Below, piece by piece: positions 6,964-64,000 of a stretch of DNA of 64,000 nucleotides. Position numbers and translations under genes: made by a program. The stretch lies in IMG/VR virus record IMGVR_UViG_3300043219_000435. One strand, 5' to 3'. Under the pieces are notes generated by a model, which searched no databases, was not told where the DNA came from, and was given only the letters and a program-made list of their open reading frames with translations. Position 1 is the stretch's first letter. The number at the start of each line of letters is the position of its first letter. Source of the stretch: a virus. Its lineage: Duplodnaviria > Heunggongvirae > Uroviricota > Caudoviricetes.

Positions 6964-7034
6964 CTTTAAAGTATAATAAAAATATATAGACGAGTCAATA
7001 AAAAATATGTACTTTAGTTAAAAAGGATTAATAT

Positions 7035-7307: not shown

Positions 7308-7312
7308 AAGGA

Positions 7313-17702: not shown

Positions 17703-17867
17703 ATGGAAGTACTTATTGGGCCAGTAGCATTTGGAATCAAATATGGCATATGTCCTATATGTGGTTATGATAAAATAGAGTTAACTGATATTGAATGTTA
17801 TAAATGTGATCAGCCTGTACAACCAGTAGAACGGATACTTACAATAGAATTAAAGGATAAGAAATGA
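17703..17867 (+). CDS. small zinc-ribbon protein
   Basis: CPICGY...CYKCDQ; ATGA overlap with tsf. Confidence 0.35.
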   Translation: MEVLIGPVAFGIKYGICPICGYDKIELTDIECYKCDQPVQPVERILTIELKDKK

Positions 17868-19886: not shown

Positions 19887-19912
19887 GGAGCAATAATTTG
19901 CTCCTTTTTTTA
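19887..19912 (+). terminator. rho-independent terminator
   Basis: GGAGCAATAATTTGCTCC hairpin followed by TTTTTTT. Confidence 0.6.
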
Positions 19913-25639: not shown

Positions 25640-26835
25640 TGAGCAAAGCAGTATTCGCATTCTCTGCAGATCCAATAACATTTGGACATATTGATATAAT
25701 CAAAAGAGCATTAACTATGTTTGATGAAGTTATAATTGCCATTGGTAATAATACTGAGAAAACATATTTGTTTCCAACAGAAAAAAGAATTGAAATGACA
25801 ATTGATGCTTTAGCTACTATTGGACATGTAAATCAATATCCATATACAAATACAGTTAAAACATATGAAGGTTTATTAATTGATTTTGCATATGAACAAA
25901 AAGCAAATGTAATCGTAAGAGGAGTTCGAAATGCTGCCGATTTTGATTATGAAAAAAGAATGGCTTTGTGTGGTGAATCCCAGGATCTTGATATAGAAAC
26001 CGTTTTGTTAATGTCAAATCAAAAATATGAACATGTATCTTCTGGATCTGTAAAATCTCTTTTAAAAAGTGGGGGCTTCATTCATAAGATGGTTCCTCTC
26101 AATGTTAAATATAATCTTGAAAAAGAACTGCTAAAGCAATATATAATTGGTGTAACTGGTGAGATGGGTTCCGGCAAATCATTTGTTACTAAAAAATTAA
26201 TTGAAAAGATCGAATCAAAAGGTTATGAAGTTCATCATCTGGATCTTGATAAGATTGCTCACGAAGTATTGAAAGATTTAAAACAACCTGCTTATGTAAA
26301 TGTAAGAAAAATGCTGATAAGTACTTTTGGATTGGTTCATCAATGCAATGACGATTATATTGACCGTGCAGAAATAGGTAAAATTATTTTTGCTGATAAA
26401 AATGATATGGAAACATTTAATTCTATAATGCTTAAACCAATGCTCACAAGAATCAAGAAAGAACTGTTTGGCAAGAAAGGAATCATTCTTTTCAACAGTG
26501 CATTATTGGCTGAAGCAGATTGGAATTTGATCTGTAATAATTTTGTAATACTTATTAATACAACCAAAGAACTTCAGTTAAAGCGTTTACTAAATCGTGG
26601 CTTGGATGAAGATCAAATTAAAGAACGTCTTGATAATCAATTGAGTTTTGAAGATAAATACAATAAGATTTATTCTGATATAACAAAACATAATCAAGGT
26701 AAAACTTTTGTGTTCGAAAATACTTTAGATGATCTTGAACCAGAATTGGAAAGAGTCACAACTGAAGTAATTAGTTCAATTATTAATACTGAAAATTATG
26801 ATGCCTATTACCAAGAAGTAAATGGTTTACTTTAA
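25639..26835 (+). CDS. coaDE: bifunctional phosphopantetheine adenylyltransferase / dephospho-CoA kinase
   Basis: N-terminal AVFAFSADPITFGHIDII..RGVRNAADFDYE (CoaD); C-terminal IIGVTGEMGSGKSFV... with a P-loop (CoaE). Confidence 0.8.
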   Translation: MSKAVFAFSADPITFGHIDIIKRALTMFDEVIIAIGNNTEKTYLFPTEKRIEMTIDALATIGHVNQYPYTNTVKTYEGLLIDFAYEQKANVIVRGVRNAADFDYEKRMALCGESQDLDIETVLLMSNQKYEHVSSGSVKSLLKSGGFIHKMVPLNVKYNLEKELLKQYIIGVTGEMGSGKSFVTKKLIEKIESKGYEVHHLDLDKIAHEVLKDLKQPAYVNVRKMLISTFGLVHQCNDDYIDRAEIGKIIFADKNDMETFNSIMLKPMLTRIKKELFGKKGIILFNSALLAEADWNLICNNFVILINTTKELQLKRLLNRGLDEDQIKERLDNQLSFEDKYNKIYSDITKHNQGKTFVFENTLDDLEPELERVTTEVISSIINTENYDAYYQEVNGLL

Positions 26836-31121: not shown

Positions 31122-32867
31122 TTATGCATCAGATTCTGGTACATCTTTTTTTGGAGTAATACATTCTGTTAAACCATTAAGAGAATCAGCATTCATACCA
31201 AGCTCGTTCAATAGATTATTGATCATTGGCGCTTGTGCTTTATACTTAAGAGCAGCTTCTGCCATGCTATCAGCCATATTAGTAGACTGTGGAGCACCTT
31301 CAACTGAAGTTCCTGTAGAAGAGCCTATACCGTTCAAACCTTCATATTGAACGATTTTAATTGATTCGATTGCTTCTATTGGTTTAACACTTTGCTCAAT
31401 GATTTTTGGAAGATTCTCAATAGTTTTCATTTTGATTTTCATTTCGATTATCTCAGGAGACAGAGAATTTTCGGCATCAACCATTTCTTTCTTACCGGCA
31501 GCATCAACAGAGTATTCTTTTTCTTTTGTTTCAGCTTTCATCATATCAGCGTTCTTATTAGCCTCAGCAATGATTTCAATTGAGTCCGCTTTGTCTTTAG
31601 AAGCTTTCTTTTCAGCATCAGCAGCAATAGTAATAGATACCGCATCTTTTTCAGCTTCTTCTTTTGCTTTAATGATTTCGATTTCTTTGTTACGATTAGC
31701 TACTTCAGTTTCTTTAACAGTAGTAACGTTCTCTTCCGCTTTAACAGCTAAAGCTCTTGCATCTTCAGCTTCTGCTTTAGCTTCAGACTCTTCTTTTGAC
31801 TTCTCACTGATAGCAATAGCTTTATCTTGAGAAGCGATCTCAAGGGTTTTGTTCTTATTAATCTCTGCAGATTGAATAGCTTGATTCTTTGTAATCTCTG
31901 CAGATTGAATAGCCTGTTCAGATTTAATGCTTTGCTCTTTGATAGCTTTTTGATTCTGAATAGTTTCTTCTTGAATTGCTTGGTTTGTAGAGAGTTGAGC
32001 TAAATCAATACTTTGTTGAGCTTTGATCTCTGCTTCTTCAGCTTCTTGTCTTTTCTCAGCTCGTTGTTTAGCAGTACTGGTAGATTCCTCTTGAGTTTTG
32101 ATAGAGATTTCTCTTTGCTGTTCAAGACGTGCATATTCATTATCTTTCTTGATAGACAGAGATTCTTTTTCAGCTTCAAGATTTTTCTTTTGAATTGCAA
32201 TTTTAGTTGACTGTTCAATGTCATTTCTTGATTTGTTACGAGATTCAATTTCTTGAGTAAGTTTCAATAAGCCTTCAGCATCAAATGCATTGTTCGGATT
32301 AAAGAATTCTTTATTAGTTTGATCCAATGAAGTAAGTGAAACAGATTCAAGTTCCATACCATTCTTCAATAAATCTTCTGTTACTGCTCGTTGAACTTTT
32401 TGAACAAAATCCGTTCTTTTTTCATGTAAATGTTCCATTGACATTTCAGCAGCTACAGAACGAAGTGCATCAACAAATTTACCCTCAACCAAATCTTTCA
32501 ATTCATTGATGACCAATGTTTTACTACCAAGAGTTTGTGCAGCATCTGCAATCGATTCATTTGTTGGTTTTACACGAACATAAAATTCTGCAGTAACGTC
32601 TACTCTCATTCTATCACTTGTAATTAATGAGTCCTTACATTTTCTATTAACGACTAATCTGATAGTGTTCATGTTTACCATAATGATGTCATGAAGAACA
32701 GGAAGTACTAACGCACCACCATTCATGATAACTTTTTGACCACCTAAACCAGTTCTTACAAAAGATCTTTCTTTAGTTGATCTGGTATATAATTTTGAAA
32801 ATACGATTCCCATTGTAAGTAATGCGACCACTGGTATTGCTATGAATAATATTAAACTGATATCCAT
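31122..32867 (-). CDS. flotillin-like SPFH/band-7 protein
   Basis: N-terminal TM, SPFH core (GGQKVIMNGGALVLP..), long EA-rich coiled coil; YqiK/FloT-like. Confidence 0.75.
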   Translation of the reverse strand: MDISLILFIAIPVVALLTMGIVFSKLYTRSTKERSFVRTGLGGQKVIMNGGALVLPVLHDIIMVNMNTIRLVVNRKCKDSLITSDRMRVDVTAEFYVRVKPTNESIADAAQTLGSKTLVINELKDLVEGKFVDALRSVAAEMSMEHLHEKRTDFVQKVQRAVTEDLLKNGMELESVSLTSLDQTNKEFFNPNNAFDAEGLLKLTQEIESRNKSRNDIEQSTKIAIQKKNLEAEKESLSIKKDNEYARLEQQREISIKTQEESTSTAKQRAEKRQEAEEAEIKAQQSIDLAQLSTNQAIQEETIQNQKAIKEQSIKSEQAIQSAEITKNQAIQSAEINKNKTLEIASQDKAIAISEKSKEESEAKAEAEDARALAVKAEENVTTVKETEVANRNKEIEIIKAKEEAEKDAVSITIAADAEKKASKDKADSIEIIAEANKNADMMKAETKEKEYSVDAAGKKEMVDAENSLSPEIIEMKIKMKTIENLPKIIEQSVKPIEAIESIKIVQYEGLNGIGSSTGTSVEGAPQSTNMADSMAEAALKYKAQAPMINNLLNELGMNADSLNGLTECITPKKDVPESDA

Positions 32868-41181: not shown

Positions 41182-41195
41182 TTTAAATCCTTAAG

Positions 41196-41270
41196 CAGAC
41201 GTGGAAGGAATCGAACCCTCACTAGCGCTGATTTTGGAGATCAGTGTTCTACCGTTTGAACTACACGTCT
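41196..41270 (-). tRNA. tRNA, anticodon CCA (Trp)
   Basis: Minus-sense AGACGTG TA GTTC-AAACGGTA-GAAC A CTGAT-CTCCAAA-ATCAG .. GAGGG-TTCGATT-CCTTC CACGTCT; canonical cloverleaf, no encoded CCA. Confidence 0.7.
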
Positions 41271-41591: not shown

Positions 41592-41604
41592 TTTAACTCC
41601 TAAG

Positions 41605-41677
41605 CAGGTGTGACAGGCATCGAACCCGTAACCGTTGGATTTGGAATCCAGTGCTCTGCCAATTGAGCTACACACCT
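41605..41677 (-). tRNA. tRNA, probably anticodon CCA (one anticodon-stem mismatch)
   Basis: Minus-sense AGGTGTG TA GCTC-AATTGGCA-GAGC A CTGGA-TTCCAAA-TCCAA .. ACGGG-TTCGATG-CCTGT CACACCT. Confidence 0.6.
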
Positions 41678-41815: not shown

Positions 41816-42919
41816 TTAAGCCTTTATGTTTATTAATGGAATAACTCGATGTTTTACTTCAACCAATTCTTCCTGTTCTTTCATTACATGGAAAATATCT
41901 TTATATGCAAATGGTGATTCATCAATTGTTCCTTGAATAACTTTTGCTTTAATACCTACCATAGATTCTTTAAAATCATCTAATGATATATTTTCTTTTG
42001 CTTGTCTTCTGCTAAGAATTCTACCGGCACCATGGGAAGATGAATAAAGAGAATCTGGATTTCCTTTACCTTCAACAATAAAAGACCCATCTCTCATATT
42101 CCCAGGTATCACACCTTCCATACCTGCTTCAGCATGTGTTGCACCTTTTCTATGAATCCACAAACCATCTTTAAATGTTGCATGATTATGATTTCTATTA
42201 ATCAATGATCTGAAATTTGCACCACCTTCACAATAATGTTTAATCTCTCTTACAACTCTTTCAAGCATTATCTCTCTATTACGAAGAGCAAACTCAAGAC
42301 AGAAATTAAGATCCATTATATAATTTTCACCTTCAACTGAAGTAACTTCTAAAGAATAATTTCCTTCTCTTGCTTTATTAGAATTTGAAGCAAGTTTCAT
42401 ATAATGTGTAGCAGTTTTATGACCAAGATTTCTAGATCCTGAATGAATAATAATCCAGATATCATCATTCTCATCATATCCTATTTCGATAAAATGATTT
42501 CCACTTCCCAGGGAACCCAATTGTTTTAATCCATTAATATCAAAATTTTCTCGACATGTTTTTGTACATTCAATTGCTTCAGCTTCTTTCCATGTACTTG
42601 AATGATCATTACGATTCATTCCGGTAGGAATTGCTCTATAGATACCATTAAAAATCTTTTCAGTTTGATCTACAATATCGCTCTTTTTAAAAGTGGTTTT
42701 TAAGGCACCTACACCGCAGCCAATATCATAACCAACCCATGCAGGGACAATATGTCCATCAGTGGCTACAACGGCTCCTATGGGTATAGAATAGCCCAAA
42801 TGTGCATCAGGCATCAATGCGCCACGTACAACAAAATCACATTTCATTGCATCATAAAATTGATTCATTGTTTTTGGTTCTATGTATTCAGCAAATACTT
42901 TATGTGGTTTTAATTTCAT
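41816..42919 (-). CDS. rtcB: RNA-splicing ligase RtcB (3'-phosphate/5'-OH RNA ligase)
   Basis: Full-length RtcB fold signatures: ..GCG.. Cys, NRNHNHA, SSSHGAGR, IPGNMRDGSFIVEG. Confidence 0.85.
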   Translation of the reverse strand: MKLKPHKVFAEYIEPKTMNQFYDAMKCDFVVRGALMPDAHLGYSIPIGAVVATDGHIVPAWVGYDIGCGVGALKTTFKKSDIVDQTEKIFNGIYRAIPTGMNRNDHSSTWKEAEAIECTKTCRENFDINGLKQLGSLGSGNHFIEIGYDENDDIWIIIHSGSRNLGHKTATHYMKLASNSNKAREGNYSLEVTSVEGENYIMDLNFCLEFALRNREIMLERVVREIKHYCEGGANFRSLINRNHNHATFKDGLWIHRKGATHAEAGMEGVIPGNMRDGSFIVEGKGNPDSLYSSSHGAGRILSRRQAKENISLDDFKESMVGIKAKVIQGTIDESPFAYKDIFHVMKEQEELVEVKHRVIPLINIKA

Positions 42920-47316: not shown

Positions 47317-49531
<2,215 letters not shown>

Positions 49532-53406: not shown

Positions 53407-53615
53407 TAATTATTACACCATTTTATTTTCCAAGTTGGATCGAAGTTGATAGGATAGAAAAACCATCCATTTTGTATACCATATCCTTCACCTTTCATAT
53501 TTGGATCTGGAACAGCACATGATGAGTGACAATCACCTGGACAGGTGCGTCTATGTTCACAACTATAGCATTCATTCTGTATGGTTCTTGCATCACCTGC
53601 CATAATATTCCTCAA
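53388..53615 (-). CDS. Cys-rich small protein
   Basis: CYSCEHRRTCPGDCHSSC. Confidence 0.35.
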   Translation of the reverse strand: MRNIMAGDARTIQNECYSCEHRRTCPGDCHSSCAVPDPNMKGEGYGIQNGWFFYPINFDPTWKIKWCNNYKNKEA

Positions 53616-54528
53616 TCATATCAATCATTATTTTTTCAATATTATCTCTATCGGGTTCTTCTGGAAAATCTGATTTTTCATAAAGAACTTCAATATCAGC
53701 TTGAAGATCATTTGCCAACTGAAGTAAATCCTCATATTTCCATTTTCCAAATCTAATATCTTTCAATTGATCAGCATCAATTCCAGTACGATCAACAATA
53801 ACTTCACCGGTTTCAAATATTTCTTTAGATTGCTTTAGCAGCCTGATAACATGCATTGCATGTTTAGTATCATAACCTACTTTTAATTCCTGTTTAAGAC
53901 GGTCTACATTACGATTTTTCATGTGAGAGACATAATCATTGTATTCTTGTAATTGCTTCTGATAAAGCTTCTCTGCCTTTACTTGATCATGTATACCAGG
54001 ATTTAAATATTTTTCTGGAATTGATAATATTGCTTTTCCGTGAATTTCAAATTCATCTTTACGTACAGGCTTTACAACGTTCTTATCGAGCCAAGACTTG
54101 TGTCTCTTCAATCGATGCAATTGAGCTTGAGCATAACAAGTATAAGTATTTTTGATTCTTTTTGATATGAATTGATATCGGTTGTCATAGATTTCCATCC
54201 AGATAGAATCACAATAAGTCCAAAATTCAGGAGGTGCAAATAATATATCCAACATATTAGGATTGTTATTAAGCATTAACTTTAAAGCTTTTTGTAATGA
54301 ATAAATTACGTTGTCAGTATCTCGATCTTCGAATTGTTGATAGTCTTTGAACCCCAGGATATATTCTTTGGGAGGTATTGCAATACCTTTATAATCATGA
54401 TCTGATTCGTCACAAAAAGTACCGTATAATCGTGATCCAGTAAGTGTTTTGAAAATACAATTATTAGTTGCTATTTTCTTTTCGTTATCATAGTTTATTA
54501 CATCTTGTTCTGTTTTTAATTCTTTCAT
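53593..54528 (-). CDS. Pol-beta-superfamily nucleotidyltransferase
   Basis: N-terminal LTGSRLYGTFCDESDHDYKGI (hG[GS]..G....D.D minimal NTase motif) plus a helical C-terminal domain. Confidence 0.5.
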   Translation of the reverse strand: MKELKTEQDVINYDNEKKIATNNCIFKTLTGSRLYGTFCDESDHDYKGIAIPPKEYILGFKDYQQFEDRDTDNVIYSLQKALKLMLNNNPNMLDILFAPPEFWTYCDSIWMEIYDNRYQFISKRIKNTYTCYAQAQLHRLKRHKSWLDKNVVKPVRKDEFEIHGKAILSIPEKYLNPGIHDQVKAEKLYQKQLQEYNDYVSHMKNRNVDRLKQELKVGYDTKHAMHVIRLLKQSKEIFETGEVIVDRTGIDADQLKDIRFGKWKYEDLLQLANDLQADIEVLYEKSDFPEEPDRDNIEKIMIDMIEEYYGR

Positions 54529-55070
54529 TTTATACAGTTATCCTTTCTAAAATCTAATATGCATTTGAATTCTCTATCATCAAATAAAAGATTCCATTCT
54601 TCTTTAACATCAATCCACATGTTTAAATAATCACACTGATTTTTAGGTGGCATATATTTACAAGGATCTCTGGCACCCTTTTTTCTATTCTCTGATGCTT
54701 TAACCGCAATCAAATGATTAGGATTTTTTAAATAGTTAGAATATTTTTGTTTCTTTTTTTTATTCCATTCATAAGCACCCGATACATATGCTTCTTTTAA
54801 TGGGACCAAATGGTCAATGTCAAGTTCAGAAGCGTTGTATATAGTATCCCCAGAATAGAAACAAATCCATAAGCCTGTAACAACTTTTCTTCCATCTTCA
54901 GACATGGTAACTTTAGTTGATAAATTTTCTTCTAGCAAAACTTCGTGTCTGGTATTGATTTTATCTTTGTCCATATCTTTCCAACCACCGAATTCTCCAC
55001 GGTTATAACCGTTGCTGAATGCTATTTGGAATAATAATAGTAATGGTATTATATATTTAATATTTTTCAT
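54525..55070 (-). CDS. secreted HNH-type (DUF1524-like) nuclease
   Basis: Signal peptide; DIDHLVPLKEAYVSGAYEWN...NHLIAVKASENRKKG HNH-like core. Confidence 0.45.
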   Translation of the reverse strand: MKNIKYIIPLLLLFQIAFSNGYNRGEFGGWKDMDKDKINTRHEVLLEENLSTKVTMSEDGRKVVTGLWICFYSGDTIYNASELDIDHLVPLKEAYVSGAYEWNKKKKQKYSNYLKNPNHLIAVKASENRKKGARDPCKYMPPKNQCDYLNMWIDVKEEWNLLFDDREFKCILDFRKDNCIK

Positions 55071-56619: not shown

Positions 56620-56878
56620 CGATATTTAAAACCCTTTCAGGATCTGTATTATTTCTAATACAGTCTATATGTTTTTCTAATTGATAAAGACTGTCCGATT
56701 TTAATAATGTATTTAAATAATCTACAAGAGATTCATTGGTCATACCACCCCAGGACGTAGATAATTCCATTGTAACAATATCATTCTTGTTTACAATTCG
56801 TAACCACCATCCCAAAGTATTACTAAAGCCAAATATCAGCTTATTATCGTTTTTAGTATGACCTTGAAATACAGACAT
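56612..56878 (-). CDS. hypothetical protein
   Basis: ORF. Confidence 0.35.
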   Translation of the reverse strand: MSVFQGHTKNDNKLIFGFSNTLGWWLRIVNKNDIVTMELSTSWGGMTNESLVDYLNTLLKSDSLYQLEKHIDCIRNNTDPERVLNIDA

Positions 56879-57924
56879 TAATTAGTAATACCTAATATGA
56901 ATTCACCTACTGTATTGGCCCACGCAACTCCAATACCTCTTGATAAAGTATAGAAAGCATATACAGCATAACAAGTAAGAAGGAAGGCTGCAGTCTTATA
57001 ACCTAATTTTTTTAACGAAAGGAAAATGAATAATAAGACTACAGTCAATCCTAAGAGCAATATTCGTAGTTCAGCAACACCAGCATCTATTGTTATGGTT
57101 GGTTCTTTTATTAAAGTAAATGCTAATAATGGGACTCCAAGACAAATACATATATCAAATATATTTGATCCTACAGCATTACTTACAGCATCATCATAAT
57201 TACCTTTTTTAGCATCTTTCATACTGATAATTGTATCGGGGACTGAAGTGGCTGCAGCAGCAATAATAACGGCTATAAAGAACGTAGGTATCTCTAAAAT
57301 CTTTGCAATTTCAACTACTGAGAAGGACATGATAAAACAACCTATACCAATTGATACAATTGCTCCAAGTAATAATAACCATGCTTTTTTGGTAGTCATT
57401 CCATTAAAGTCTTCTTCATCATCATCTTCAGAACGCACTTTAGTTGAAATTTTATTATGGATGTATAGAGTTAAAGCATAAAGGATATAAATTCCTATTA
57501 AAACAGCACCCATCCACCATTCTAATTTACCATCTGTTAATATTAATATTAAAGCCAATTCAGCAAGAATAAAGAAAAAACCATCTCTTATAATAACAAC
57601 TTTATTTATTGAAATGTTTTTGAGATTTGGTATAAATTTTAAAGCTGATACAATTACTAAACCAGGAATAATAAATGCATTAAATACACTAGATCCGGCA
57701 GTAGTTCCAATTGCTGCTGCAAATTCCTTTTCACCAAAAATAAACAAGAAGATAATAGTTGTCCATAATTCGGGCATAGAGCTGCCTATAGCGTTTATTG
57801 TGGCACCTTTAATGCCTGGGCCGAGATTTCTTCCAAGATAGCTTGAAGCGTCCTCAAACGGGTCACATGACTTCATTATCCATAAACAACCTACAATTAC
57901 TAATGCTAACCATAAAAATATCAT
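56878..57924 (-). CDS. Ca2+/cation antiporter (CaCA family, YrbG/NCKX-like)
   Basis: 10-TM-like hydropathy with two alpha-repeat signatures, GSSMPEL and GSNIFDI. Confidence 0.65.
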   Translation of the reverse strand: MIFLWLALVIVGCLWIMKSCDPFEDASSYLGRNLGPGIKGATINAIGSSMPELWTTIIFLFIFGEKEFAAAIGTTAGSSVFNAFIIPGLVIVSALKFIPNLKNISINKVVIIRDGFFFILAELALILILTDGKLEWWMGAVLIGIYILYALTLYIHNKISTKVRSEDDDEEDFNGMTTKKAWLLLLGAIVSIGIGCFIMSFSVVEIAKILEIPTFFIAVIIAAAATSVPDTIISMKDAKKGNYDDAVSNAVGSNIFDICICLGVPLLAFTLIKEPTITIDAGVAELRILLLGLTVVLLFIFLSLKKLGYKTAAFLLTCYAVYAFYTLSRGIGVAWANTVGEFILGITN

Positions 57925-58593: not shown

Positions 58594-59211
58594 TTATGGA
58601 TTTGTTTGAAATCCAAATGAGTGCAACAGGTCGCCAAGATCTTCATTTGATCCTTGACCTTGTGGGTGGAATTTCCACGCATCATTCTTTTTGTAAATTT
58701 CAAATACTCTCATGAATTTGAATTGACTATAATCTTCAGTAAGATCATACTCAACCAATTTTTCACCACTTGCATCATCAACAATACTAATTTGAGCGTT
58801 AACAGCTTGACCAAGATTCAAACCTGTCTGACCTTCTTTTTCATCAATTGAAATAAAGAAAGCGATTTTTGCTTTTGGTACTGTAGAAAGTTTTGCAACG
58901 ATTTCTTCAACTGAAAGACCGTCAGTTCCACCGTCAAGAACATCACCTGAGTGCATGATTGCACCTTCAGCAATAATTTTCTTGCCATCAGAATTTACAG
59001 TTTCGGTATTATAAAACAATAAATCCTCTGCACATAACATTTTGTCATTTTCATCAAGCATGATTGCAGATAAATCCAAATCAATTGCTTCAGTCATTGC
59101 AGGACTTTTTCCCCAACTTAAAACAGCTTTTACTTTGTCAAGTCCTGGAAGTGCTTTTGTAAGGTCGATTCTTACACCAGTTTGTGCTTTTTGTAAATTA
59201 ATTACAGTCAT
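58594..59211 (-). CDS. TerD-family protein (TerZ/TerE-like)
   Basis: VRIDLTK..LDLSAIMLD...GDVLDGGTDG...KFMRVFEIYKKNDAWKF matches the TerD fold signature. Confidence 0.7.
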   Translation of the reverse strand: MTVINLQKAQTGVRIDLTKALPGLDKVKAVLSWGKSPAMTEAIDLDLSAIMLDENDKMLCAEDLLFYNTETVNSDGKKIIAEGAIMHSGDVLDGGTDGLSVEEIVAKLSTVPKAKIAFFISIDEKEGQTGLNLGQAVNAQISIVDDASGEKLVEYDLTEDYSQFKFMRVFEIYKKNDAWKFHPQGQGSNEDLGDLLHSFGFQTNP

Positions 59212-59808: not shown

Positions 59809-60489
59809 TTAGTTCATCAATCCACGAAGTCTTCCCATAATCCCACCACCGGAATTACTAGAAGATGAATCTTGACTTGGAGTAGAACCGGAACTATAAT
59901 CTTTTGATGCAATAGCTCGTTCCATTTCTGCAATATTATTATGATTTGTAGCAATACCGAGGGCATTGAATTTCCATTCACCATTGTGACGATATACTTC
60001 ACCAAAGAAAAGGGCTTTATTGTCAGCAACAGATTTATCATCACTCAAAGTAAACTGATATAAATCTTTTTTAGAATCTGCATTTGAAAGACGAATCCAT
60101 GCATTTTTAAGATCTTTGAATTTGAAACCACTACTAAAAGTATTCATTATGATAACACATTTATCAACATCAGCAGCTACAGAATCAAAAATAACATCAA
60201 TTTTTTCATTTGGTGCATCAGCTCTTCCACCACCATCCAAATCGTCACCATGATGCTTAACACCTCTACATGAACTATTAAATTTTTGATATGAAACGGT
60301 TTCTTTAACTTTACCATCAGCTTTAACTAATACAATAGAAGCATCAAGATCGATTGTTCCCATTCCTTTTTTAGCCCAACCCATTCCCAACTGAAGTTTC
60401 TTCAAACCATCATGTTTTTTAGTAAGATCAATTCGTTGACCTTTATCTATTTTCTCTAAATTAATTACACTCATATGCACTCCTACCAA
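59809..60489 (-). CDS. terD: TerD tellurite-resistance-family protein
   Basis: QRIDLTK..IDLDASIVL..HGDDLDGGG...IDVIFDSV...FGEVYRHNGEWKFNALG. Confidence 0.8.
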   Translation of the reverse strand: MVGVHMSVINLEKIDKGQRIDLTKKHDGLKKLQLGMGWAKKGMGTIDLDASIVLVKADGKVKETVSYQKFNSSCRGVKHHGDDLDGGGRADAPNEKIDVIFDSVAADVDKCVIIMNTFSSGFKFKDLKNAWIRLSNADSKKDLYQFTLSDDKSVADNKALFFGEVYRHNGEWKFNALGIATNHNNIAEMERAIASKDYSSGSTPSQDSSSSNSGGGIMGRLRGLMN

Positions 60490-60575
60490 TTAAATTTTTA
60501 TTTCCGTTATACCATATTAAGTATTAATTTTTTGTCAGTCAATATATTTTTTAAATATTATTACTTTAGTTGTAA

Positions 60576-60603
60576 ATAAAAAAAAGACACTCAAAAGAGT
60601 GCC
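60576..60603 (-). terminator. rho-independent terminator (minus strand)
   Basis: GGCACTCTTTTGAGTGTC hairpin followed by T8 on the minus strand. Confidence 0.5.
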
Positions 60604-60630
60604 TTATAATCAGACGAATATCATGTACAA

Positions 60631-60713
60631 AGTTTTGATAGGATTTGAACCTATAGTTACTTGGCGTTAACCAAGTAGCCGGTTTATGAGACCAGTGCGT
60701 TTACCAATTTCGC
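60631..60713 (-). ncRNA. tRNA-like element (canonical arm order, CAU anticodon loop, extra variable-arm hairpin, mismatched acceptor)
   Basis: D-arm GCG-AAATTGGTAAA-CGC, anticodon arm CTGGT-CTCATAA-ACCGG, hairpin ACTTGG..CCAAGT, T-arm ATAGG-TTCAAAT-CCTAT; the complementary 5' strand GGTTTTG lies about 35 nt upstream of the D-arm. Confidence 0.4.
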
Positions 60714-60855
60714 TACGATGTAATTGTACATTGCAGTACTGATTAATCAAAACCTGGACTGTAGTTATATAATAATGAAATTATAAAAATTAACTACAGC
60801 CAGGATTTTCAATCATATAAATGGGTAAAAGTCAAAATAAGCGTTTTCTCCCGTT

Positions 60856-60911
60856 GCTCTACCAACTGAGCTACTTGCCCCCGTTATGGGCAAAGATGGA
60901 TTTGAACCACC
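60856..60911 (-). ncRNA. circularly permuted tRNA-like module B (YrlA-type Y-RNA-like)
   Basis: Minus-sense T-arm GGTGG-TTCAAAT-CCATC, acceptor 3' TTTGCCC, loop ATAAC, acceptor 5' GGGCAAG, TA, D-arm GCTC-AGTTGGTA-GAGC; preceded by the GTGTTGCAG..AGATACTTCG box. Confidence 0.5.
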
Positions 60912-61005
60912 GACACACAGCTTTACATACGAAGTATCTTATTCCTGCAACACCATTTAAAACATAAAAAAATTATAGGAAAAAATCAATCAGAGAGAAT
61001 ATCGT

Positions 61006-61061
61006 GCTCTACCAACTGAGCTATTCCCCCATGTTACGGGGAAAGATGGACTCGAACCACC
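61006..61061 (-). ncRNA. circularly permuted tRNA-like module C
   Basis: T-arm GGTGG-TTCGAGT-CCATC, TTTCCCC, G TAACAT, GGGGGAA, TA, GCTC-AGTTGGTA-GAGC; same flanking box. Confidence 0.5.
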
Positions 61062-61218
61062 GGCCACGTCGTTAAAAGCGAAGTAACTCTAATCTGCATC
61101 ACTACAATTTTTTTTATCACTCTCTAATCTTTGATCTACATAATAAAGAACATGATCTCAGAATGATAAAAATCAAATAAATAAATGGGTAAAAATCGTT
61201 AAGAGAATCTATATCGTT

Positions 61219-61275
61219 GCTCTACCAGACTGAGCTATCTCCCCACGTTACGGGGAAAGGTGGATTCGAACCACC
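61219..61275 (-). ncRNA. circularly permuted tRNA-like module D
   Basis: T-arm GGTGG-TTCGAAT-CCACC, TTTCCCC, G TAACGT, GGGGAGA, TA, GCTC-AGTCTGGTA-GAGC; same flanking box. Confidence 0.5.
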
Positions 61276-61381
61276 GACACACGGCTCCTAATGCGAAGTA
61301 ACTCTACACTGCAACACCATTTATTTAATATTTTAAAAATACAATAAAAAGAATGGTAAAAATCAATATAACAAATTTTTT

Positions 61382-61434
61382 TCTCTACCAATTGAGCTAT
61401 ATCCCCCTGGGGGAACAATCGGACTCGAACCGAT
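61382..61434 (-). ncRNA. circularly permuted tRNA-like module E (short loop)
   Basis: T-arm ATCGG-TTCGAGT-CCGAT, TGTTCCC, CCA, GGGGGATA, D-arm GCTC-AATTGGTA-GAGA; variant flanking box. Confidence 0.4.
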
Positions 61435-61541
61435 AACCTTTTGTATTTCAAACAATCGAAGTAAGTCATATTTGCAACACATTCTTTTTATTTTATTCTT
61501 AAAAAATTAGTAGGTAAAAAACGTAATAAGTGGTCTTTTGT

Positions 61542-61611
61542 TTACAATACCGGGATTGAACCAGTAACGTTTGATTAGCTATCAAATGCTCTACCAGTTG
61601 AGCAAATTGTA
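61542..61611 (-). ncRNA. tRNA-like element, canonical order but atypical (A33 in anticodon loop TAGCTAA, terminal acceptor mismatch)
   Basis: D-arm GCTC-AACTGGTA-GAGC, anticodon arm TTTGA-TAGCTAA-TCAAA, T-arm ACTGG-TTCAATC-CCGGT, acceptor GTACAAT/ATTGTAA; preceded by the flanking box. Confidence 0.35.
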
Positions 61612-61797
61612 CGAAGTAACTTATAACTGCAACACTACTAAAAGTTTTAAATTATAATAATCAGGTAAGTATCGAGGATAGTGTCTAGTTTTTTATTTTG
61701 AGAAAAAATTTTTCGAAGTAACTATTCCCTGCAACACTAATTATTATTTTTTATTAATTTCTTATCTATATATAAAGATAATAAAGATCAAAGTTAT

Positions 61798-61833
61798 AGT
61801 CAACCATTATCTTTCAAATGGCTGACTTTTTTA
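61798..61833. terminator. hairpin plus T-run abutting the Ro60 stop codon
   Basis: TAGTCAACCA..TGGCTGACT followed by TTTTTT on the plus strand; orientation relative to a transcript is unclear. Confidence 0.35.
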
Positions 61834-61834
61834 A

Positions 61835-63517
61835 TTATAAATCTACAGCATTTACCATGTCAATAATACCATGCTTCATAGTTTCCATTTCAACTACACT
61901 CTTAAGAAGATTATCACTCCATCCGCTAAGATGCATGTAATTATTATTCTTAGGATCTAACTGAGTAGAACTATCATTTGCTGCCAAGTTAAATTCATAA
62001 ACCTTAATTGACTTATTCACTTTAGTTTGATAAGTTTTAAGATCCTGGAACAAACTTGATCCACCATTATATGATCCGTTAAACTGACAATCAGTGAATA
62101 CGAACATTTGATCAACATGTATATTTCGCTTTGTAATATCTTGCATTACAGAAGCAAAATTTGTTGAATGACCAACTGAAGTACTCATGATCTGTTTAAC
62201 TCGATCAAGAGGATTATGTTTACGTTCATCAACTGCTACTATTTTCTCATGATTACCGAAACCATAAATAATTGATTTATCACAATACTGTTGCGCCAAT
62301 GAACCCATAACAGCACCGATTTCCATATAAGTAACAGATCCTTCTGCAGACAAAAGAGTATTCATAGAAGCTGACAAATCAACAGCAATTACGGTATTAC
62401 CATTCATCTTTGGTACATTCTTACCGGAATGCCATAATGCTTTATTAAGAGCACTTAAATAACGATCCCTGACAGTTCTAGTGTTTTCAGTGCCAGACCC
62501 ACCATATTTAGAATCGAAGGGATCTGTATTTTTATGTCCCCAACCACTCGTATTATATCCAGAGTTTCCACCAATAGCTTTATACGCACTCCAATATCTG
62601 AAAGGGAATTGTTTGCCTTTTTCTACTGCAGTCTCATTGGATAAAAACTGAAGTGCCATTCTATGTGCTTCTTCTGACAAACCACTTTCAATGATGTTAC
62701 GAATATTTCTTAACAAAGCCATATAAGGAAGTTTTTTAGCAAGAATTAATTGTTCCCAATTATCTTTTTTGGCAGCATCAACTTCTTTTTTCACTTCAGT
62801 TTTAGTCTTACCTTTTTTATCAATCTGACCGGCACCTGAAATTTTATTTTCCCAGGTATTTGCTTTCTCAAGAGTACCGTTCATAAATTTCTTCCAAAGC
62901 TCAGCTTGATCAGAATCAATTGGTTTAGGTCTAAGAATTCTGAAAATATCTCTCAATTTAACTTCTTTCTTAGCAGCTTTGTATTTGTCCAACTGATAAG
63001 CATCAAATTTTGAAATAGAATTTTGTAAACCAATTCTCAATTGTTTTGAAAGTTTTTTCTTGATATGTCTAGAACCATGTACAGTTGTTTTTTCTTTACT
63101 GTAATTATAAATCAAGTAAGAGATAATTTCTGTAATATCATCAACACGACAAGTAACTCTTTCAGCAACAGTTTTAACAACTGAAGTATCAACATCTTCT
63201 TTTTCATTTAACTTAGAAACAATTCTTGAAAGTTCCGCAGTCAATACATGAGAAACACTTCTTAGATTAAACTTTTCACGGCTTAATACAGCAAGTTTAG
63301 CAAGAAATACAGGATCTTCTTTACCGACTTTGTCGATAAGTTTATGTAGTTCTTTATCAGATTTGTATCCGCTTTTATAAAATTTATCTTGACCATAGAA
63401 ACACGTTAAAACTCTATCACACAAATCTTGATAGATAGATTTTTCAAATGCTTTTACTCCATCACATGAAGTAGTCATTTTACGTGTTTTTTTCGGAGTG
63501 GTATTAAACTTAGACAT
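61835..63517 (-). CDS. rsr: Ro60/TROVE-domain protein (Rsr orthologue) with a C-terminal vWA/MIDAS domain
   Basis: 560 aa; a helical TROVE-like N-terminal two-thirds and a C-terminal VIAVDLSASM (DxSxS MIDAS)...T...D vWA; adjacent to the tRNA-like RNA cluster, with rtcB in the same genome region. Confidence 0.6.
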   Translation of the reverse strand: MSKFNTTPKKTRKMTTSCDGVKAFEKSIYQDLCDRVLTCFYGQDKFYKSGYKSDKELHKLIDKVGKEDPVFLAKLAVLSREKFNLRSVSHVLTAELSRIVSKLNEKEDVDTSVVKTVAERVTCRVDDITEIISYLIYNYSKEKTTVHGSRHIKKKLSKQLRIGLQNSISKFDAYQLDKYKAAKKEVKLRDIFRILRPKPIDSDQAELWKKFMNGTLEKANTWENKISGAGQIDKKGKTKTEVKKEVDAAKKDNWEQLILAKKLPYMALLRNIRNIIESGLSEEAHRMALQFLSNETAVEKGKQFPFRYWSAYKAIGGNSGYNTSGWGHKNTDPFDSKYGGSGTENTRTVRDRYLSALNKALWHSGKNVPKMNGNTVIAVDLSASMNTLLSAEGSVTYMEIGAVMGSLAQQYCDKSIIYGFGNHEKIVAVDERKHNPLDRVKQIMSTSVGHSTNFASVMQDITKRNIHVDQMFVFTDCQFNGSYNGGSSLFQDLKTYQTKVNKSIKVYEFNLAANDSSTQLDPKNNNYMHLSGWSDNLLKSVVEMETMKHGIIDMVNAVDL

Positions 63518-64000
63518 CGCACAGCTCCTTTTAATTAGTTTTAAACCGACACATTCGGTTTGTTAATATAAGTATAGCAACTTTTATATTAACCGTCAAT
63601 ACTTTTAAGTAACTAATTTCATTTTATATAAATTGGAGTGTAATTACATTAATATTTTCAATAAATTTAAACTTATTATCATAATGATCTATATGCATCA
63701 TTTCATGAATATAGATTTTATCCTTATTAATAATTTTATAATAATGAACCACAACATTGTAGTTATTTTGTAACGCGAAATCTTTTGAATACATGGCTAA
63801 TCCTTAATAGAGATTATATACTAAGTTATTTATTTAACGTTGTCAATAAATTTATAAATATAATATAAGGATGAGACCTGAGAGGCAGAATGAATACTTT
63901 AACTAAAGTAGATTTTAAAGAATTAATAGCACAATTTATAAATTTATACGGACAGAATTTTATATGGTTTATTATAATTTTTATTTCTTTTTTCTTTTTA

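What the first reader, a model, noticed from the sequence alone, without database searches (positions are those of the whole stretch)
60631..63517. Ro60 (Rsr) orthologue next to a cluster of tRNA-derived RNAs with YrlA-like permuted architecture
The 560-aa minus-strand protein at 61835-63517 has the size and layout of Ro60: a TROVE-type helical N-terminal region and a C-terminal vWA domain with a DxSxS MIDAS motif (VIAVDLSASM). Immediately downstream on the same strand lies a 1.1-kb non-coding array. It contains at least four modules (60856-60911, 61006-61061, 61219-61275, 61382-61434) built from perfect tRNA T-arms and D-arms. Their order is T-arm, acceptor 3' strand, 5-7-nt loop, acceptor 5' strand, D-arm. 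The two acceptor strands of each module are complementary to each other and covary between modules (GGGCAAG/TTTGCCC, GGGGGAA/TTTCCCC, GGGGAGA/TTTCCCC). This is the architecture described for YrlA-class bacterial Y RNAs: the acceptor stem is closed by a loop and the RNA termini form the helix where an anticodon stem would be. Ro60, Y RNA and RtcB are a known functional trio (the rsr-yrlBA-rtcBA locus of Salmonella), and rtcB lies 20 kb away at 41816-42919. Four tandem Y-RNA-like genes next to rsr in a phage would be an unusually elaborate instance.
Basis: partly seen in the sequence, partly recalled or inferred. Interest (0 to 1): 0.88.

Follow-up and report, generated by a model that had tools for sequence, protein, structure and literature searches.

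The report
Phage Ro60 with seven Y RNAs
A gene for the ring-shaped RNA-binding protein Ro60 is followed by seven small tRNA-mimicking "Y RNA" genes that share one closing stem; this is a real instance of a partnership already known from bacteria and other phages, not a new kind of system.

Summary
The 560-aa protein (61835-63517, minus strand) is a Ro60 orthologue with TROVE and Ro60-type vWA domains and a DxSxS motif. The four modules with the order T-arm, closed acceptor-like hairpin, D-arm are real.

The array is larger than described. It has seven tandem units (60606-61744). Each is closed by the same two-helix stem around a conserved internal loop: 5' GGUGUUGCAG-N6-GUUACUUCG and 3' YGAUUUUUACC.
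- Four units (C-F) are YrlA-type.
- One unit (A) has no tRNA-like head.
- Two units (B, G) carry tRNA-like heads in normal D-anticodon-T order.

Rfam's YrlA model matches only the tRNA-like core, at 25-38 bits against a threshold of 69. An alignment of 27 related units from viral Ro60 loci shows strong covariation in all five helices. That includes the within-module acceptor-like stem, which excludes split or dimeric tRNAs.

A model built from that alignment finds eight tandem units beside the TROVE gene of Caulobacter phage CcrColossus, and arrays of up to about 14 units in other viral loci. The locus is therefore a new member of a known kind, and seven units is not exceptional. Ro60 binding and expression are inferred, not shown.

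The parts
63571..63599 (-). Sigma-70-like promoter candidate upstream of the Ro60 gene (TTGACG-17-TATACT with an extended TG)
   Evidence: 10 of 12 matches. This is a consensus match only; the number of such matches in the region is no higher than in shuffles.
61835..63517 (-). Ro60 (Rsr) orthologue, 560 aa: TROVE/HEAT ring plus a C-terminal Ro60-type vWA domain with a DxSxS MIDAS motif
   Evidence: The closest relatives are 72% (L001/P0002) and 40-49% identical metagenomic proteins. The closest isolate phage is only 30% identical.
61834..61863 (-). Perfect sigma-70 consensus (TTGACA-18-TATAAT) overlapping the last codons of the Ro60 gene; a possible promoter for the RNA array
   Evidence: 12 of 12. 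It is not conserved as such in L001, so its function is uncertain.
61775..61803 (-). Second promoter candidate just upstream of unit A (TTGACT-17-TATCTT). L001 has TTGACT-17-TATAAT at the equivalent place (L001 5736-5764).
   Evidence: The conserved position in a 72%-identity relative is the only support.
61799..61826 (-). Hairpin directly after the Ro60 stop codon (GUCAGCCAUU...AAUGGUUGAC)
   Evidence: Read from the sequence. Role unknown; it could be an attenuator or a processing site.
61657..61744 (-). Unit A: Y-RNA-like closing stem with a short unstructured A/U-rich head and no tRNA-like domain (YrlB-like)
   Evidence: R1 gives 46.3 bits, E about 1e-11, full length, and the unit was not in the training set. 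The orthologue is in L001 from about 5790 to 5870, with its 5' motif at about 5803.
61506..61642 (-). Unit B: the same closing stem around a complete cloverleaf in normal (unpermuted) order (61540-61612). The anticodon loop is UAGCUAA (A at position 33), the variable loop is short despite the GCU anticodon, G1 and A72 are mismatched, and no CCA is encoded.
   Evidence: ARAGORN. Rfam tRNA 45.2 bits. R1 49.3 bits, not in training. The centroid fold shows the closing stem plus a cloverleaf. No counterpart in L001.
61348..61487 (-). Unit C: YrlA-type (T-arm, acceptor-like hairpin UGUUCCC/GGGGAUA, D-arm; core 61382-61434)
   Evidence: Rfam YrlA 25.0 bits. R1 109.8 bits, a training member. The MFE fold gives the outer and inner helices.
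61181..61324 (-). Unit D: YrlA-type (core 61219-61275; acceptor-like stem UUUCCCC/GGGGAGA)
   Evidence: Rfam YrlA 38.0 bits. R1 125.7 bits. The inner helix has two mismatches, and the MFE fold prefers an alternative pairing, UUAGGAG/CUCUUAA.
60971..61109 (-). Unit E: YrlA-type (core 61006-61061; UUUCCCC/GGGGGAA)
   Evidence: Rfam YrlA 29.1 bits. R1 120.2 bits. The MFE fold reproduces the consensus closing stem.
60817..60960 (-). Unit F: YrlA-type (core 60856-60911; UUUGCCC/GGGCAAG)
   Evidence: Rfam YrlA 32.3 bits. R1 119.1 bits. The MFE fold reproduces the consensus.
60749..60809 (-). Long imperfect hairpin between units F and G, followed by UUUUGAUU. Its ends are conserved in L001 (AAAAUCCUGG...CCAGGUUUUGA).
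   Evidence: It could be a terminator or an RNase III-type processing site; not tested.
60606..60746 (-). Unit G: the same closing stem around an acceptor-less tRNA-like core (60637-60716) made of a D arm, an anticodon arm with loop CUCAUAA, a long variable arm and a T arm
   Evidence: Rfam tRNA 39.0 bits over model positions 7-64 only. R1 41.1 bits, not in training. MFE equals centroid equals consensus, z = -3.2.
60575..60605 (-). Intrinsic terminator after unit G (9-bp stem, 4 G-C pairs, then a U run)
   Evidence: An equivalent G+C-rich hairpin plus U run follows the last unit in L001.
41816..42919 (-). RtcB RNA ligase. It is context only and is not contiguous with the Ro60 locus.
   Evidence: PF01139, 305 bits. 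The functional link to Ro60 and the Y RNAs is inferred from the Salmonella rsr-yrlBA-rtcBA operon (PMC7790460, listed).

Best explanation
This is a Ro60 (Rsr) gene followed by a tandem array of seven Y RNA genes of the YrlA family, in what is most likely a large phage.

Fold of each unit. Each RNA is about 90-145 nt, and its 5' and 3' ends pair. The closing stem has these parts:
- an outer helix of 7 bp, a bulged pyrimidine, then 2 more bp;
- a conserved asymmetric internal loop (5' UGCA, 3' GAUUUUU);
- an 8-bp inner helix whose sequence differs in every unit;
- the invariant single-stranded UACUUCG.

Inferred mechanism. By position and by analogy with the GNCGAAN0-1G / GGUCCGA site of known Y RNAs, this closing module is the Ro60-binding site. 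The variable head is the effector module. In units C-F it is an L-shaped tRNA mimic without a free CCA end or an anticodon loop (YrlA-type). In units B and G it is a tRNA mimic in normal order attached through its acceptor end, the topology described for Deinococcus Yrn1. Unit A has no head (YrlB-like). The Ro60 ring would be tethered through these heads to tRNA-binding or RNA-degrading host factors, PNPase in the studied systems. That would redirect RNA surveillance, decay or repair during infection, alongside the phage's own RtcB, RlaP and Tpt1 RNA-repair genes.

Shown here: the protein's identity, the RNA architecture, its covariation and its family relations.

Inferred: transcription (possibly as one precursor from a promoter at the end of rsr to the terminator at 60584-60605), Ro60 binding, and the effector.
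For: Protein: TROVE plus vWA_Ro60 and PDB Ro60 hits.

RNA motif: seven copies of the 5' motif occur only in the array. Rfam YrlA is the best non-tRNA family for units C-F.

Conservation: a syntenic array with the same motifs and different helix sequences lies next to a 72%-identical Ro60 in L001.

Structure and covariation:
- RNAalifold on a sequence-only MAFFT alignment of 27 units from 17 loci predicts the outer helix, inner helix, T arm, acceptor-like stem and D stem. 30 of 33 pairs show compensatory changes.
- The count of structure pairs gives 92.9% of cells paired, against 61.4% shuffled and at most 49.7% when partners are slid. The covariation score is 0.87 against 0.25, with 0 of 500 shuffles as high.
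- The covariance model R1 finds units A, B and G at 41-49 bits (E 1e-10 to 1e-12), full length, although they were not used to build it. Nothing else in 64 kb scores above 21 bits.

Association with Ro60: the same module sits next to Ro60 genes found by protein search alone. These include CcrColossus (8 units), Xylella phage Usme (at least 3 by R1; motifs at 2502, 2573 and 2822) and L002, L006, L036, L038 and L040.

Matches to described YrlA features: UUAC matches the conserved YUAY/UA kink of YrlA. A bulged pyrimidine is flanked by covarying pairs (cols 10/163 and 11/162).

Known biology: Y RNAs are encoded within 4 kb of Ro60 on the same strand in 254 bacteria and 22 phages (PMC4201824). Phage phiLo Ro60 binds adjacent Y-like RNAs and host PNPase (PMC12135203).
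Against: - No unit reaches Rfam's YrlA gathering score (at most 38 bits against 69), and the Rfam model aligns only the core.
- The literal GNCGAAN0-1G motif is absent. The window has GGUGUUG or AGUGAUG instead.
- Single-sequence folding z-scores are weak for most units (-0.45 to -2.3; only G reaches -3.2).
- Unit D's inner helix has two mismatches and a competing pairing.
- The loci L165-L189 were retrieved with a pattern that contains the 5' motif and the T loop. Conservation of those elements in them is therefore circular.
- Unit ends in alignment A1 were chosen partly by complementarity, which inflates the paired percentage of helices 1-2. It does not affect helices 3-5.
- The 47%-identical Ro60 clade (L195-L197) has no adjacent array, so the association is not universal.
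- Nothing here shows expression, processing or protein binding.
Confidence: 0.85

Rival explanations
1. The modules are halves of split, intron-containing or dimeric tRNAs. The D-arm half of one module and the T-arm half of the next would form one tRNA after removal of about 90-100 nt. The YrlA hits would then be the known false positive caused by tandem tRNAs.
For: The Rfam tRNA model aligns across modules at 38.8 and 36.0 bits (61251-61406 and 60887-61030). Within the window, cross-module acceptor pairing is nearly as good as in-module pairing (6,7,6 of 7). Chen et al. 2014 warn about this artefact.
Against: Those tRNA alignments need an 87-100-nt insertion where the anticodon arm should be and have no anticodon stem. 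In the orthologous L001 array, in-module pairing is 7,7,7,6 and cross-module pairing only 2,4,5. Across 27 units the in-module stem is 93% paired, with compensatory changes at 7 of 7 pairs. The sequence between modules is itself a conserved, covarying two-helix stem, and that stem also encloses units with no tRNA halves at all (unit A).
Confidence: 0.03
2. Units C-F are circularly permuted tRNA genes, as in some red algae (my own recall, not checked here). The flanks would pair and be cut, the ends ligated (here by the phage RtcB) into a circle, and the acceptor loop then opened by RNase P and a 3' nuclease to give functional tRNAs.
For: The order is the same: 3' half, linker, 5' half. RtcB, RlaP and Tpt1/KptA are encoded in the window. 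M. smegmatis YrlA is cleaved by RNase P and receives CCA (PMC4201824).
Against: Joining the ends would not create a 5-bp anticodon stem with a 7-nt loop. The position is taken by a stem of about 17 bp with a conserved internal loop, identical in kind in all units. These include the headless unit A and the unpermuted units B and G, which would not need permutation repair. The closing module co-occurs with Ro60 genes across unrelated viral contigs. No CCA is encoded.
Confidence: 0.04
3. The conserved flanks are DNA-level signals rather than RNA structure: a phage-specific promoter (GTGTTGCAG-N6-GTTACTTCG) and a stop signal (GATTTTTACC) around small tRNA-like genes. They would have no relation to Ro60 binding.
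For: The 5' motif has a fixed length and sits immediately before each head. The tRNA-like part of unit B begins exactly at the last G of the motif. The 3' motif is U-rich. The weak -35/-10 matches TTTACC-17-TAAAAT and TTACCA-18-TAAAAT overlap the junctions.
Against: The variable N7 block covaries with a block just upstream of the 3' motif. The sequence upstream of the 5' motif covaries with the sequence downstream of the 3' motif. Helices 1 and 2 are 86% and 94% paired, and all 17 pairs show compensatory changes. Cognate 5' and 3' flanks pair better than non-cognate ones: 13.75 against 11.75 +/- 1.06, and 33 of 61 units lie in the top 5%. Such pairing is a property of an RNA that contains both flanks. 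The promoter-like matches are no more frequent than in shuffles.
Confidence: 0.05
4. The RNAs are Y-like in fold but act mainly as decoys or sensors for host tRNA-targeting defence nucleases. Ro60 would only stabilise them, and they would not be adaptors that tether Ro60 to an exonuclease.
For: Units B and G carry anticodon arms: UAGCUAA, and the Met-like CUCAUAA. The window encodes an RNA-repair set of RtcB, RlaP and Tpt1/KptA. The Salmonella rsr-yrlBA-rtcBA operon responds to damaged tRNAs (PMC7790460, listed).
Against: Five of the seven units have no anticodon loop. The strongly conserved parts are the closing module and the D/T elbow, not an anticodon arm. There is no direct evidence either way.
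Confidence: 0.15

Closest known systems
YrlA / YrlB of Salmonella Typhimurium (rsr-yrlBA-rtcBA locus; Rfam RF02553; Chen et al. 2014, PMC4201824; structure preprint 10.1101/312249)
   Same: It is encoded next to Ro60 on the same strand. Units C-F have the YrlA order: V region, T arm, closed acceptor-like stem, D arm, then a stem formed by the RNA ends. The D arm is GCUC...GAGC, the T loop is GGUUCGAAUCC, and UUAC corresponds to the conserved YUAY/UA kink. There is a 5-nt 5' loop containing UGC, as in the Rfam consensus AUGCU. Unit A resembles YrlB in lacking the tRNA-like domain.
   Different: Scores are below the Rfam gathering score (25-38 bits against 69). The literal GNCGAAN0-1G motif is replaced by GGUGUUG or AGUGAUG. 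An invariant UACUUCG and a conserved 3' loop strand (GAUUUUU) are present, although Chen et al. report that only the 5' strand is recognisable in the Salmonella and M. smegmatis RNAs. There are seven genes rather than two. rtcB is 19 kb away, and neither rtcA nor rtcR was seen.
[quoted passage not shown]
   Same: It has the same closing module (GGUGGCGUAG-N7-(U)UACUUCG ... CG-N5-UUCCCC). There are eight tandem units directly beside the Ro60 gene on the same strand. YrlA-type and short head-less units are mixed.
   Different: Its array lies upstream of Ro60, not downstream. Its sequence is G+C-rich. Ro60 is only about 27% identical. No unpermuted tRNA-like heads were seen among its eight units. 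The GenBank record annotates one unit as tRNA-Gln.
Deinococcus radiodurans Yrn1
   Same: Units B and G have the orientation reported for Yrn1: D-like arm, anticodon-like arm, then T arm, with the Ro60-binding stem at the acceptor position (PMC4201824).
   Different: No sequence comparison was made here because Yrn1 was not available to the tools. Chen et al. regard Yrn1 and YrlA as independently evolved, whereas here both topologies sit on one and the same closing module in a single array.
Thermus phage phiLo Ro60 with Yrl1/Yrl2 (PMC12135203; PDB 9KOP, 9L5Y)
   Same: It is a phage-encoded Ro60 with adjacent Y-like RNAs. It is the best PDB match of the window protein (2e-13). It has a 5'-3' stem with an internal bulge as the proposed binding site.
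   Different: phiLo has two RNAs defined by a CGAA motif, and no tRNA-like domain is described for them. Here there are seven RNAs with tRNA-like heads and no CGAA motif in the 5' strand.
Circularly permuted tRNA genes (red alga Cyanidioschyzon merolae; own knowledge, not checked here)
   Same: The 3' half precedes the 5' half, with the acceptor strands joined by a short linker.
   Different: Those genes yield functional tRNAs with a regenerated anticodon loop. Here the ends form a long conserved stem that is associated with Ro60 genes and is also present around non-permuted heads and around no head at all.

Membership tests
Ro60 / Rsr (TROVE family) | TROVE (HEAT-repeat ring) domain above the Pfam threshold | tested here: met
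   PF05731, 82.7 bits against a cutoff of 23. PDB Ro60 of phage phiLo, 2e-13.
Ro60 / Rsr (TROVE family) | C-terminal Ro60-type vWA domain with a MIDAS DxSxS motif | tested here: met
   PF25045, 42.6 bits against 27.7. DLSAS occurs in VIAVDLSASM. Xenopus and human Ro60 vWA regions match at 2e-5 and 4.5e-5.
Ro60 / Rsr (TROVE family) | Ring-shaped fold that binds Y RNA on its outer surface | not tested
   No structure prediction was run. Binding cannot be tested with these tools.
YrlA-class bacterial Y RNA (Rfam RF02553; Chen et al. 2014) | Score at or above Rfam's gathering threshold (69 bits) | tested here: not met
   38.0, 32.3, 29.1 and 25.0 bits, and mostly only model positions 23-87 align well. 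Relatives from G+C-rich viral contigs also stay at 34-44 bits.
YrlA-class bacterial Y RNA (Rfam RF02553; Chen et al. 2014) | Encoded within 4 kb of the Ro60 gene on the same strand | tested here: met
   The units span 60606-61744 and the Ro60 gene ends at 61835. All lie on the minus strand.
YrlA-class bacterial Y RNA (Rfam RF02553; Chen et al. 2014) | tRNA-like domain in the order T arm, closed acceptor-like stem-loop, D arm, with tRNA-type D and T loops | tested here: met
   Met for units C-F. The helices are supported by covariation in 27 related units: T 99%, AS 93% and D 97% paired. Not met by units A, B and G.
YrlA-class bacterial Y RNA (Rfam RF02553; Chen et al. 2014) | GNCGAAN0-1G motif near the 5' end (proposed Rsr site) | tested here: not met
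   The window has GGUGUUG, AGUGUUG, AGUGAUG and CAGUACUG at the equivalent place. The consensus of the related units is GG-Y-R-N-U-G. The position and context are the same, in a stem formed by the ends and followed by UGC.
YrlA-class bacterial Y RNA (Rfam RF02553; Chen et al. 2014) | Conserved YUAY at the start of the V region (the UA kink in the crystal structure) | tested here: met
   UUAC occurs in 6 units and AUAC in 1. UAC is invariant in alignment A1. The feature is described.
YrlA-class bacterial Y RNA (Rfam RF02553; Chen et al. 2014) | 5' and 3' ends pair to form the stem that carries the Ro60 site | tested here: met
   Outer helix of 9 pairs and inner helix of 8 pairs, all with compensatory changes. 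Recovered by MFE or centroid folds for units B, C, E, F and G.
YrlA-class bacterial Y RNA (Rfam RF02553; Chen et al. 2014) | Bound by Ro60 in vivo; carries tRNA modifications (psi55, D); substrate of tRNA enzymes | not testable with these tools
   This needs RIP, EMSA and modification mapping.
rsr-yrlBA-rtcBA type RNA-repair operon | rsr, Y RNA genes and rtcB/rtcA contiguous and co-regulated (RtcR, sigma-54) | tested here: not met
   RtcB lies at 41816-42919, 19 kb from rsr, with many genes between them. rtcA and rtcR were not found among the ORFs scanned, and not all ORFs were scanned.
Functional tRNA (for unit B, called tRNA-Ser GCT by ARAGORN) | U33, identity elements of its isoacceptor class (long variable arm for bacterial Ser), and a paired 1-72 position | tested here: not met
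   The anticodon loop is UAGCUAA, so position 33 is A. The variable loop is 5 nt. G1 and A72 are mismatched. The gene is embedded in the Y-type closing stem.

The most novel reading that the evidence does not exclude
The Ro60-binding closing stem may be a portable scaffold on which tRNA-mimic heads are exchanged in several circular permutations. The window has the YrlA-type (T-AS-D), the unpermuted or Yrn1-type (D-AC-V-T, units B and G) and no head (unit A). A related contig has a further AS-D-AC-V-T form (L186 1754-1893). If so, a single phage Ro60 would be armed with a panel of different adaptors or decoys, each aimed at a different tRNA-binding host factor or defence nuclease. It would also mean that the YrlA and Yrn1 topologies, thought to have arisen independently, can interconvert on one scaffold.
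Probability: 0.3. Interest if true: 0.6.

Novelty: new member of a known kind. Interest (0 to 1): 0.35.

Why it matters
Ro60 and its Y RNAs are well studied in animals and in three bacteria, but their role in phages is nearly unexplored. This locus adds no new principle. It does show cleanly that phage Ro60 genes come with whole arrays of Y RNAs that share one closing module and differ in their heads.

The analysis gives three practical results:
- a covariance model (R1) that detects phage Y RNAs which Rfam's YrlA model misses;
- a sharply defined candidate Ro60 site for mutagenesis (the UGCA / GAUUUUU loop, the bulged pyrimidine and UACUUCG);
- a correction of likely mis-annotations, namely 'tRNA-Ser' here and 'tRNA-Gln' in CcrColossus.

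Finding permuted and unpermuted tRNA mimics on one scaffold bears on how Y RNAs arose from tRNAs.

Tried and rejected
1. blastn of the whole locus against 50,697 phage records found only about 70-nt tRNA-like matches. There is no close isolate relative.
2. The first collection scan used a pattern with 14 specified bases (GTTGCA-N8-TTACTTCG). It returned 120 or more single chance matches and was useless. Adding the T loop made the pattern specific.
3. Ungapped scans of the 7-nt variable block, or of the outer strand alone, against 200-nt downstream windows had too little power in A+T-rich sequence. A joint test comparing cognate with non-cognate flanks, and the alignment-based counts, replaced them.
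4. Anchoring the 3' module by the outer helix alone often picked wrong sites.
5. Rfam at its gathering threshold gave no YrlA hit in the 12 viral Ro60 loci scanned that way. The E-value mode was needed.
6. The nearest larger Ro60 clade (47% identity, P0004 and P0008) was fetched in the hope of more orthologous arrays. Ro60 there is tightly flanked by protein genes and R1 finds nothing.
7. The 2020 review (PMC10870794) and the supplementary tables of Chen et al. 2014 are not held. I could not check how many CcrColossus RNAs were already listed.
8. The R1 hit at 26438-26505 (20.8 bits) lies inside a coding region and lacks the motif. I rejected it as chance.
9. Single-sequence folding z-scores are mostly unimpressive. 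The structural case therefore rests on covariation.

Full report
1. WHAT IS THERE

The minus-strand ORF 61835-63517 encodes a 560-aa protein. It matches Pfam TROVE (PF05731, E 4e-23) and the Ro60-type vWA domain (PF25045, E 8e-11). It also matches PHROG 850 and the solved Ro60 structures of Thermus phage phiLo (9KOP/9L5Y, 2e-13), Xenopus (1YVP, 2e-5) and human (9NEN, 4.5e-5). It carries the DxSxS motif (DLSAS). It is a Ro60/Rsr orthologue.

Its closest relatives are metagenomic. One is 72% identical and lies on a 211-kb IMG/VR contig (L001). The next are 40-49% identical, followed by Bacteroidota Ro60 proteins at about 33%. The best isolate phage is only 30% identical.

2. THE RNA ARRAY HAS SEVEN UNITS

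The motif TGCAR-N7-TTACTTCG occurs seven times within 2 mismatches. All seven lie in 60716-61733 on the minus strand, and there is one other match in the window. Chance expectation is 2.6 +/- 1.5, and 0 of 100 shuffles reached the observed total.

Each unit begins with (A/U-rich strand)-GGUGUUGCAG-N6-GUUACUUCG and ends with (complement of N6)-YGAUUUUUACC-(complement of the first strand).

With a covariance model (R1, below) the units are:
- A 61657-61744
- B 61506-61642
- C 61348-61487
- D 61181-61324
- E 60971-61109
- F 60817-60960
- G 60606-60746

Unit A has only about 30 unstructured A/U-rich nucleotides as its head.

Unit B encloses the 'tRNA-Ser(GCT)' called by ARAGORN (61540-61612). It is a complete cloverleaf in normal order, but position 33 is A, the variable loop is 5 nt, G1 and A72 are mismatched and no CCA is encoded. 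It is therefore not a plausible decoding tRNA.

Unit G encloses an acceptor-less tRNA-like core (60637-60716; Rfam tRNA 39 bits over model positions 7-64). The core has a D arm, an anticodon arm with loop CUCAUAA, a long variable arm and a T arm. Its MFE fold equals the consensus, with z = -3.2.

A hairpin follows the Ro60 stop codon (61799-61826). Two sigma-70-like sites precede unit A: TTGACA-18-TATAAT at 61834-61863, and TTGACT-17-TATCTT at 61775-61803. The second has a counterpart in L001. A long conserved hairpin separates F from G (60749-60809). An intrinsic terminator follows G (60584-60605). Transcription as one precursor is plausible but not shown.

3. IS IT MORE THAN CHANCE, AND IS THE FOLD REAL?

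Rfam's YrlA model (RF02553) is the best non-tRNA family for C-F. The scores are 38.0, 32.3, 29.1 and 25.0 bits against a gathering score of 69, and the model aligns essentially only the tRNA-like core.

L001 has a syntenic array of six units behind its Ro60 gene. The conserved motifs are the same but every helix has a different sequence.

A pattern scan of IMG/VR for the 5' motif plus a T loop returned 25 stretches. At least 16 of them encode a Ro60 homologue next to the match. The same motif precedes the Ro60 gene of Xylella phage Usme and of L002, both of which were found through the protein.

I aligned 27 YrlA-type units from 17 loci with MAFFT, using sequence only (A1). RNAalifold predicted five helices: an outer helix of 7+2 bp with a one-nucleotide bulge, an inner helix of 8 bp, the T stem, the acceptor-like stem and the D stem. 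30 of 33 pairs show compensatory changes.

The count of structure pairs gave the following:
- 92.9% of cells paired, against 61.4% in shuffles and at most 49.7% with partners slid by 1-3 columns.
- Covariation score 0.87 against 0.25, with 0 of 500 shuffles as high.
- By helix: 86%, 94%, 99%, 93% and 97% paired.

There are two caveats. The unit ends were chosen partly by complementarity, which favours helices 1-2. Many loci were retrieved with the motif itself.

Three independent checks address these caveats.
- Cognate 5' and 3' flanks pair better than non-cognate ones under the same search procedure: 13.75 against 11.75 +/- 1.06. 33 of 61 units are in the top 5%.
- R1 finds the untrained units A, B and G full length at 46, 49 and 41 bits. 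Nothing else in the window exceeds 21 bits.
- R1 finds the module beside Ro60 genes that were collected by protein similarity only.

The split-tRNA reading predicts better acceptor complementarity between neighbouring modules. In the window the test is weak, because D and E share the same 3' strand: in-module 7,7,7,7 against cross-module 6,7,6. In L001 it is decisive: in-module 7,7,7,6 against cross-module 2,4,5. Over all 27 units the means are 6.5 in-module and 3.3 for non-cognate pairs. The modules are self-contained.

5. COMPARISON WITH KNOWN Y RNAs

Chen et al. 2014 (PMC4201824) defined YrlA RNAs by these features:
- They are encoded within 4 kb of Ro60 on the same strand.
- They have a 5' GNCGAAN0-1G motif in a stem formed by the ends.
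- A conserved YUAY begins the V region.
- They have near-invariant T and D arms with an acceptor-like stem-loop between them.

They found such RNAs in 254 bacteria and 22 phages and reported several per locus where present. The crystal structure shows a tRNA L-shape with a UA kink (10.1101/312249).

The window units match in genomic position, in the stem formed by the ends, in YUAY (UUAC/AUAC) and, for C-F, in the tRNA-like domain. They do not match the literal GNCGAA motif (GGUGUUG instead) or the Rfam threshold.

They have an extended invariant UACUUCG and a conserved 3' loop strand, so both strands of the candidate Ro60 site are recognisable. The bulged pyrimidine two pairs from the loop recalls the bulged helix of animal Y RNAs. 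That resemblance is from my own recall and is only a lead.

Units B and G have the orientation that Chen et al. describe for Deinococcus Yrn1. Unit A resembles YrlB.

6. THE ARRAY IS NOT EXCEPTIONAL

R1 finds eight tandem units (L190 1709-2906) directly upstream of the TROVE gene of Caulobacter phage CcrColossus. The closing module there is GGUGGCGUAG-N7-UACUUCG...CG-N5-UUCCCC. CcrColossus is cited among the phages with Y RNA-like RNAs. Its GenBank record annotates one unit as tRNA-Gln.

Other viral Ro60 loci carry 3 to about 14 units (L186, L168, L177, L167 and L006). Heads fall into recurring classes:
- YrlA-type, the majority;
- head-less;
- hairpin plus T arm;
- rarely unpermuted (window B and G, L187);
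- otherwise permuted (L186 1754-1893).

Seven units is therefore ordinary for this group.

7. MECHANISM (INFERRED)

Ro60 most likely binds the closing module, and the heads act as effector modules that mimic tRNA. In Deinococcus and Salmonella, Y RNA tethers Ro60 to PNPase. Phage phiLo Ro60, its Y-like RNAs and host PNPase form a ternary complex in vitro (PMC12135203).

The window also encodes RtcB (305 bits), an RlaP nucleotidyltransferase, Tpt1/KptA, a NUDIX protein and a Sir2-like protein. That fits a phage RNA-repair or counter-defence toolkit of the kind described for jumbo phages (PMC7824862). None of these genes is in an operon with rsr. Which partner each head recruits, and whether B and G act as decoys for anticodon nucleases, remains open.

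8. VERDICT

The array is larger and more varied than described, and it is not unusual among phage Ro60 loci. It is a new member of a known kind.

Three points deserve modest interest: the sharply defined closing module, the failure of the Rfam model on this phage subfamily, and the coexistence of permuted and unpermuted tRNA mimics on one scaffold.

Noticed in passing
window 41195-41270 and 41604-41677 (-), next to rtcB 41816-42919 (-): Two tRNA-Trp(CCA) genes lie immediately downstream of the RtcB ligase gene. They are the only canonical tRNAs in the window. A duplicated Trp tRNA beside an RNA ligase may relate to a host nuclease that targets tRNA-Trp.
   Followed up: no
window 53593-54528 (-), 54525-55070 (-), 19910-20476 (-), 20905-21438 (-), 16005-16637 (+): Further RNA-repair or NAD-related genes are scattered in the window. 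They are RlaP (PF10127), an adjacent GmrSD_C/HNH-like protein, the Tpt1/KptA RNA 2'-phosphotransferase (167 bits), a NUDIX hydrolase and a Sir2-like protein.
   Followed up: partly
window 58594-59211 (-) and 59809-60489 (-); L001 about 6880-7530: Two TerD-domain paralogues flank an acidic 158-aa protein directly downstream of the RNA array. The position is conserved in L001, where a TerD-like gene also follows the array.
   Followed up: partly
window 17864-18739 (+), 47540-49531 (+), 31122-32867 (-), 25639-26835 (+), 56878-57924 (-): Several cell-like genes are unusual for a phage: elongation factor Ts, a full-length NAD-dependent DNA ligase, a flotillin/SPFH protein, a PPAT-dephospho-CoA kinase fusion and a Na/Ca exchanger. 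This fits a 'huge phage', but no structural gene was identified in the window.
   Followed up: no
window 60749-60809 (-); L001 about 6540-6600: A long imperfect hairpin lies between units F and G. Its ends are conserved (AAAAUCCUGG...CCAGGUUUUGA) and its interior varies between the two phages. It may be an internal terminator or an RNase III site that splits the array into A-F and G.
   Followed up: no
L190 (CcrColossus JX100810) 2116-2284; record 109217-109284: The GenBank 'tRNA-Gln' of CcrColossus lies inside a 96-bit R1 unit of the Y-RNA array, and ARAGORN finds no tRNA there. It is probably a mis-annotated Y RNA, as is the 'tRNA-Ser' of this window.
   Followed up: partly
L186 1754-1893 (IMGVR_UViG_3300037280_000066): One unit has a third permutation of the tRNA-like head: closed acceptor hairpin, D arm, anticodon arm, V loop and T arm, all inside the same closing stem. 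This 2-kb stretch holds about 14 R1 hits.
   Followed up: partly
L175/L176/L183 (other parts of the L001 contig IMGVR_UViG_3300037245_001419, and a near-identical contig): The relative phage carries two more units of the same family far from its Ro60 gene, beside a tRNA cluster. Not all Y-like RNAs are therefore Ro60-adjacent. In this 64-kb window none was found outside the array.
   Followed up: partly
L001 1313-1664 and L168 10041-10389: Phage-encoded tmRNA genes lie a few kb from the Ro60 gene in two related contigs.
   Followed up: no
L195-L197 (Ro60 47% identical, contigs up to 413 kb): In the next-closest Ro60 clade the gene sits between glycosyltransferase and UDP-glucose dehydrogenase genes. 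It has under 70 nt of flanking non-coding DNA and no Y-like RNA nearby. Its RNA partners, if any, are encoded elsewhere.
   Followed up: partly
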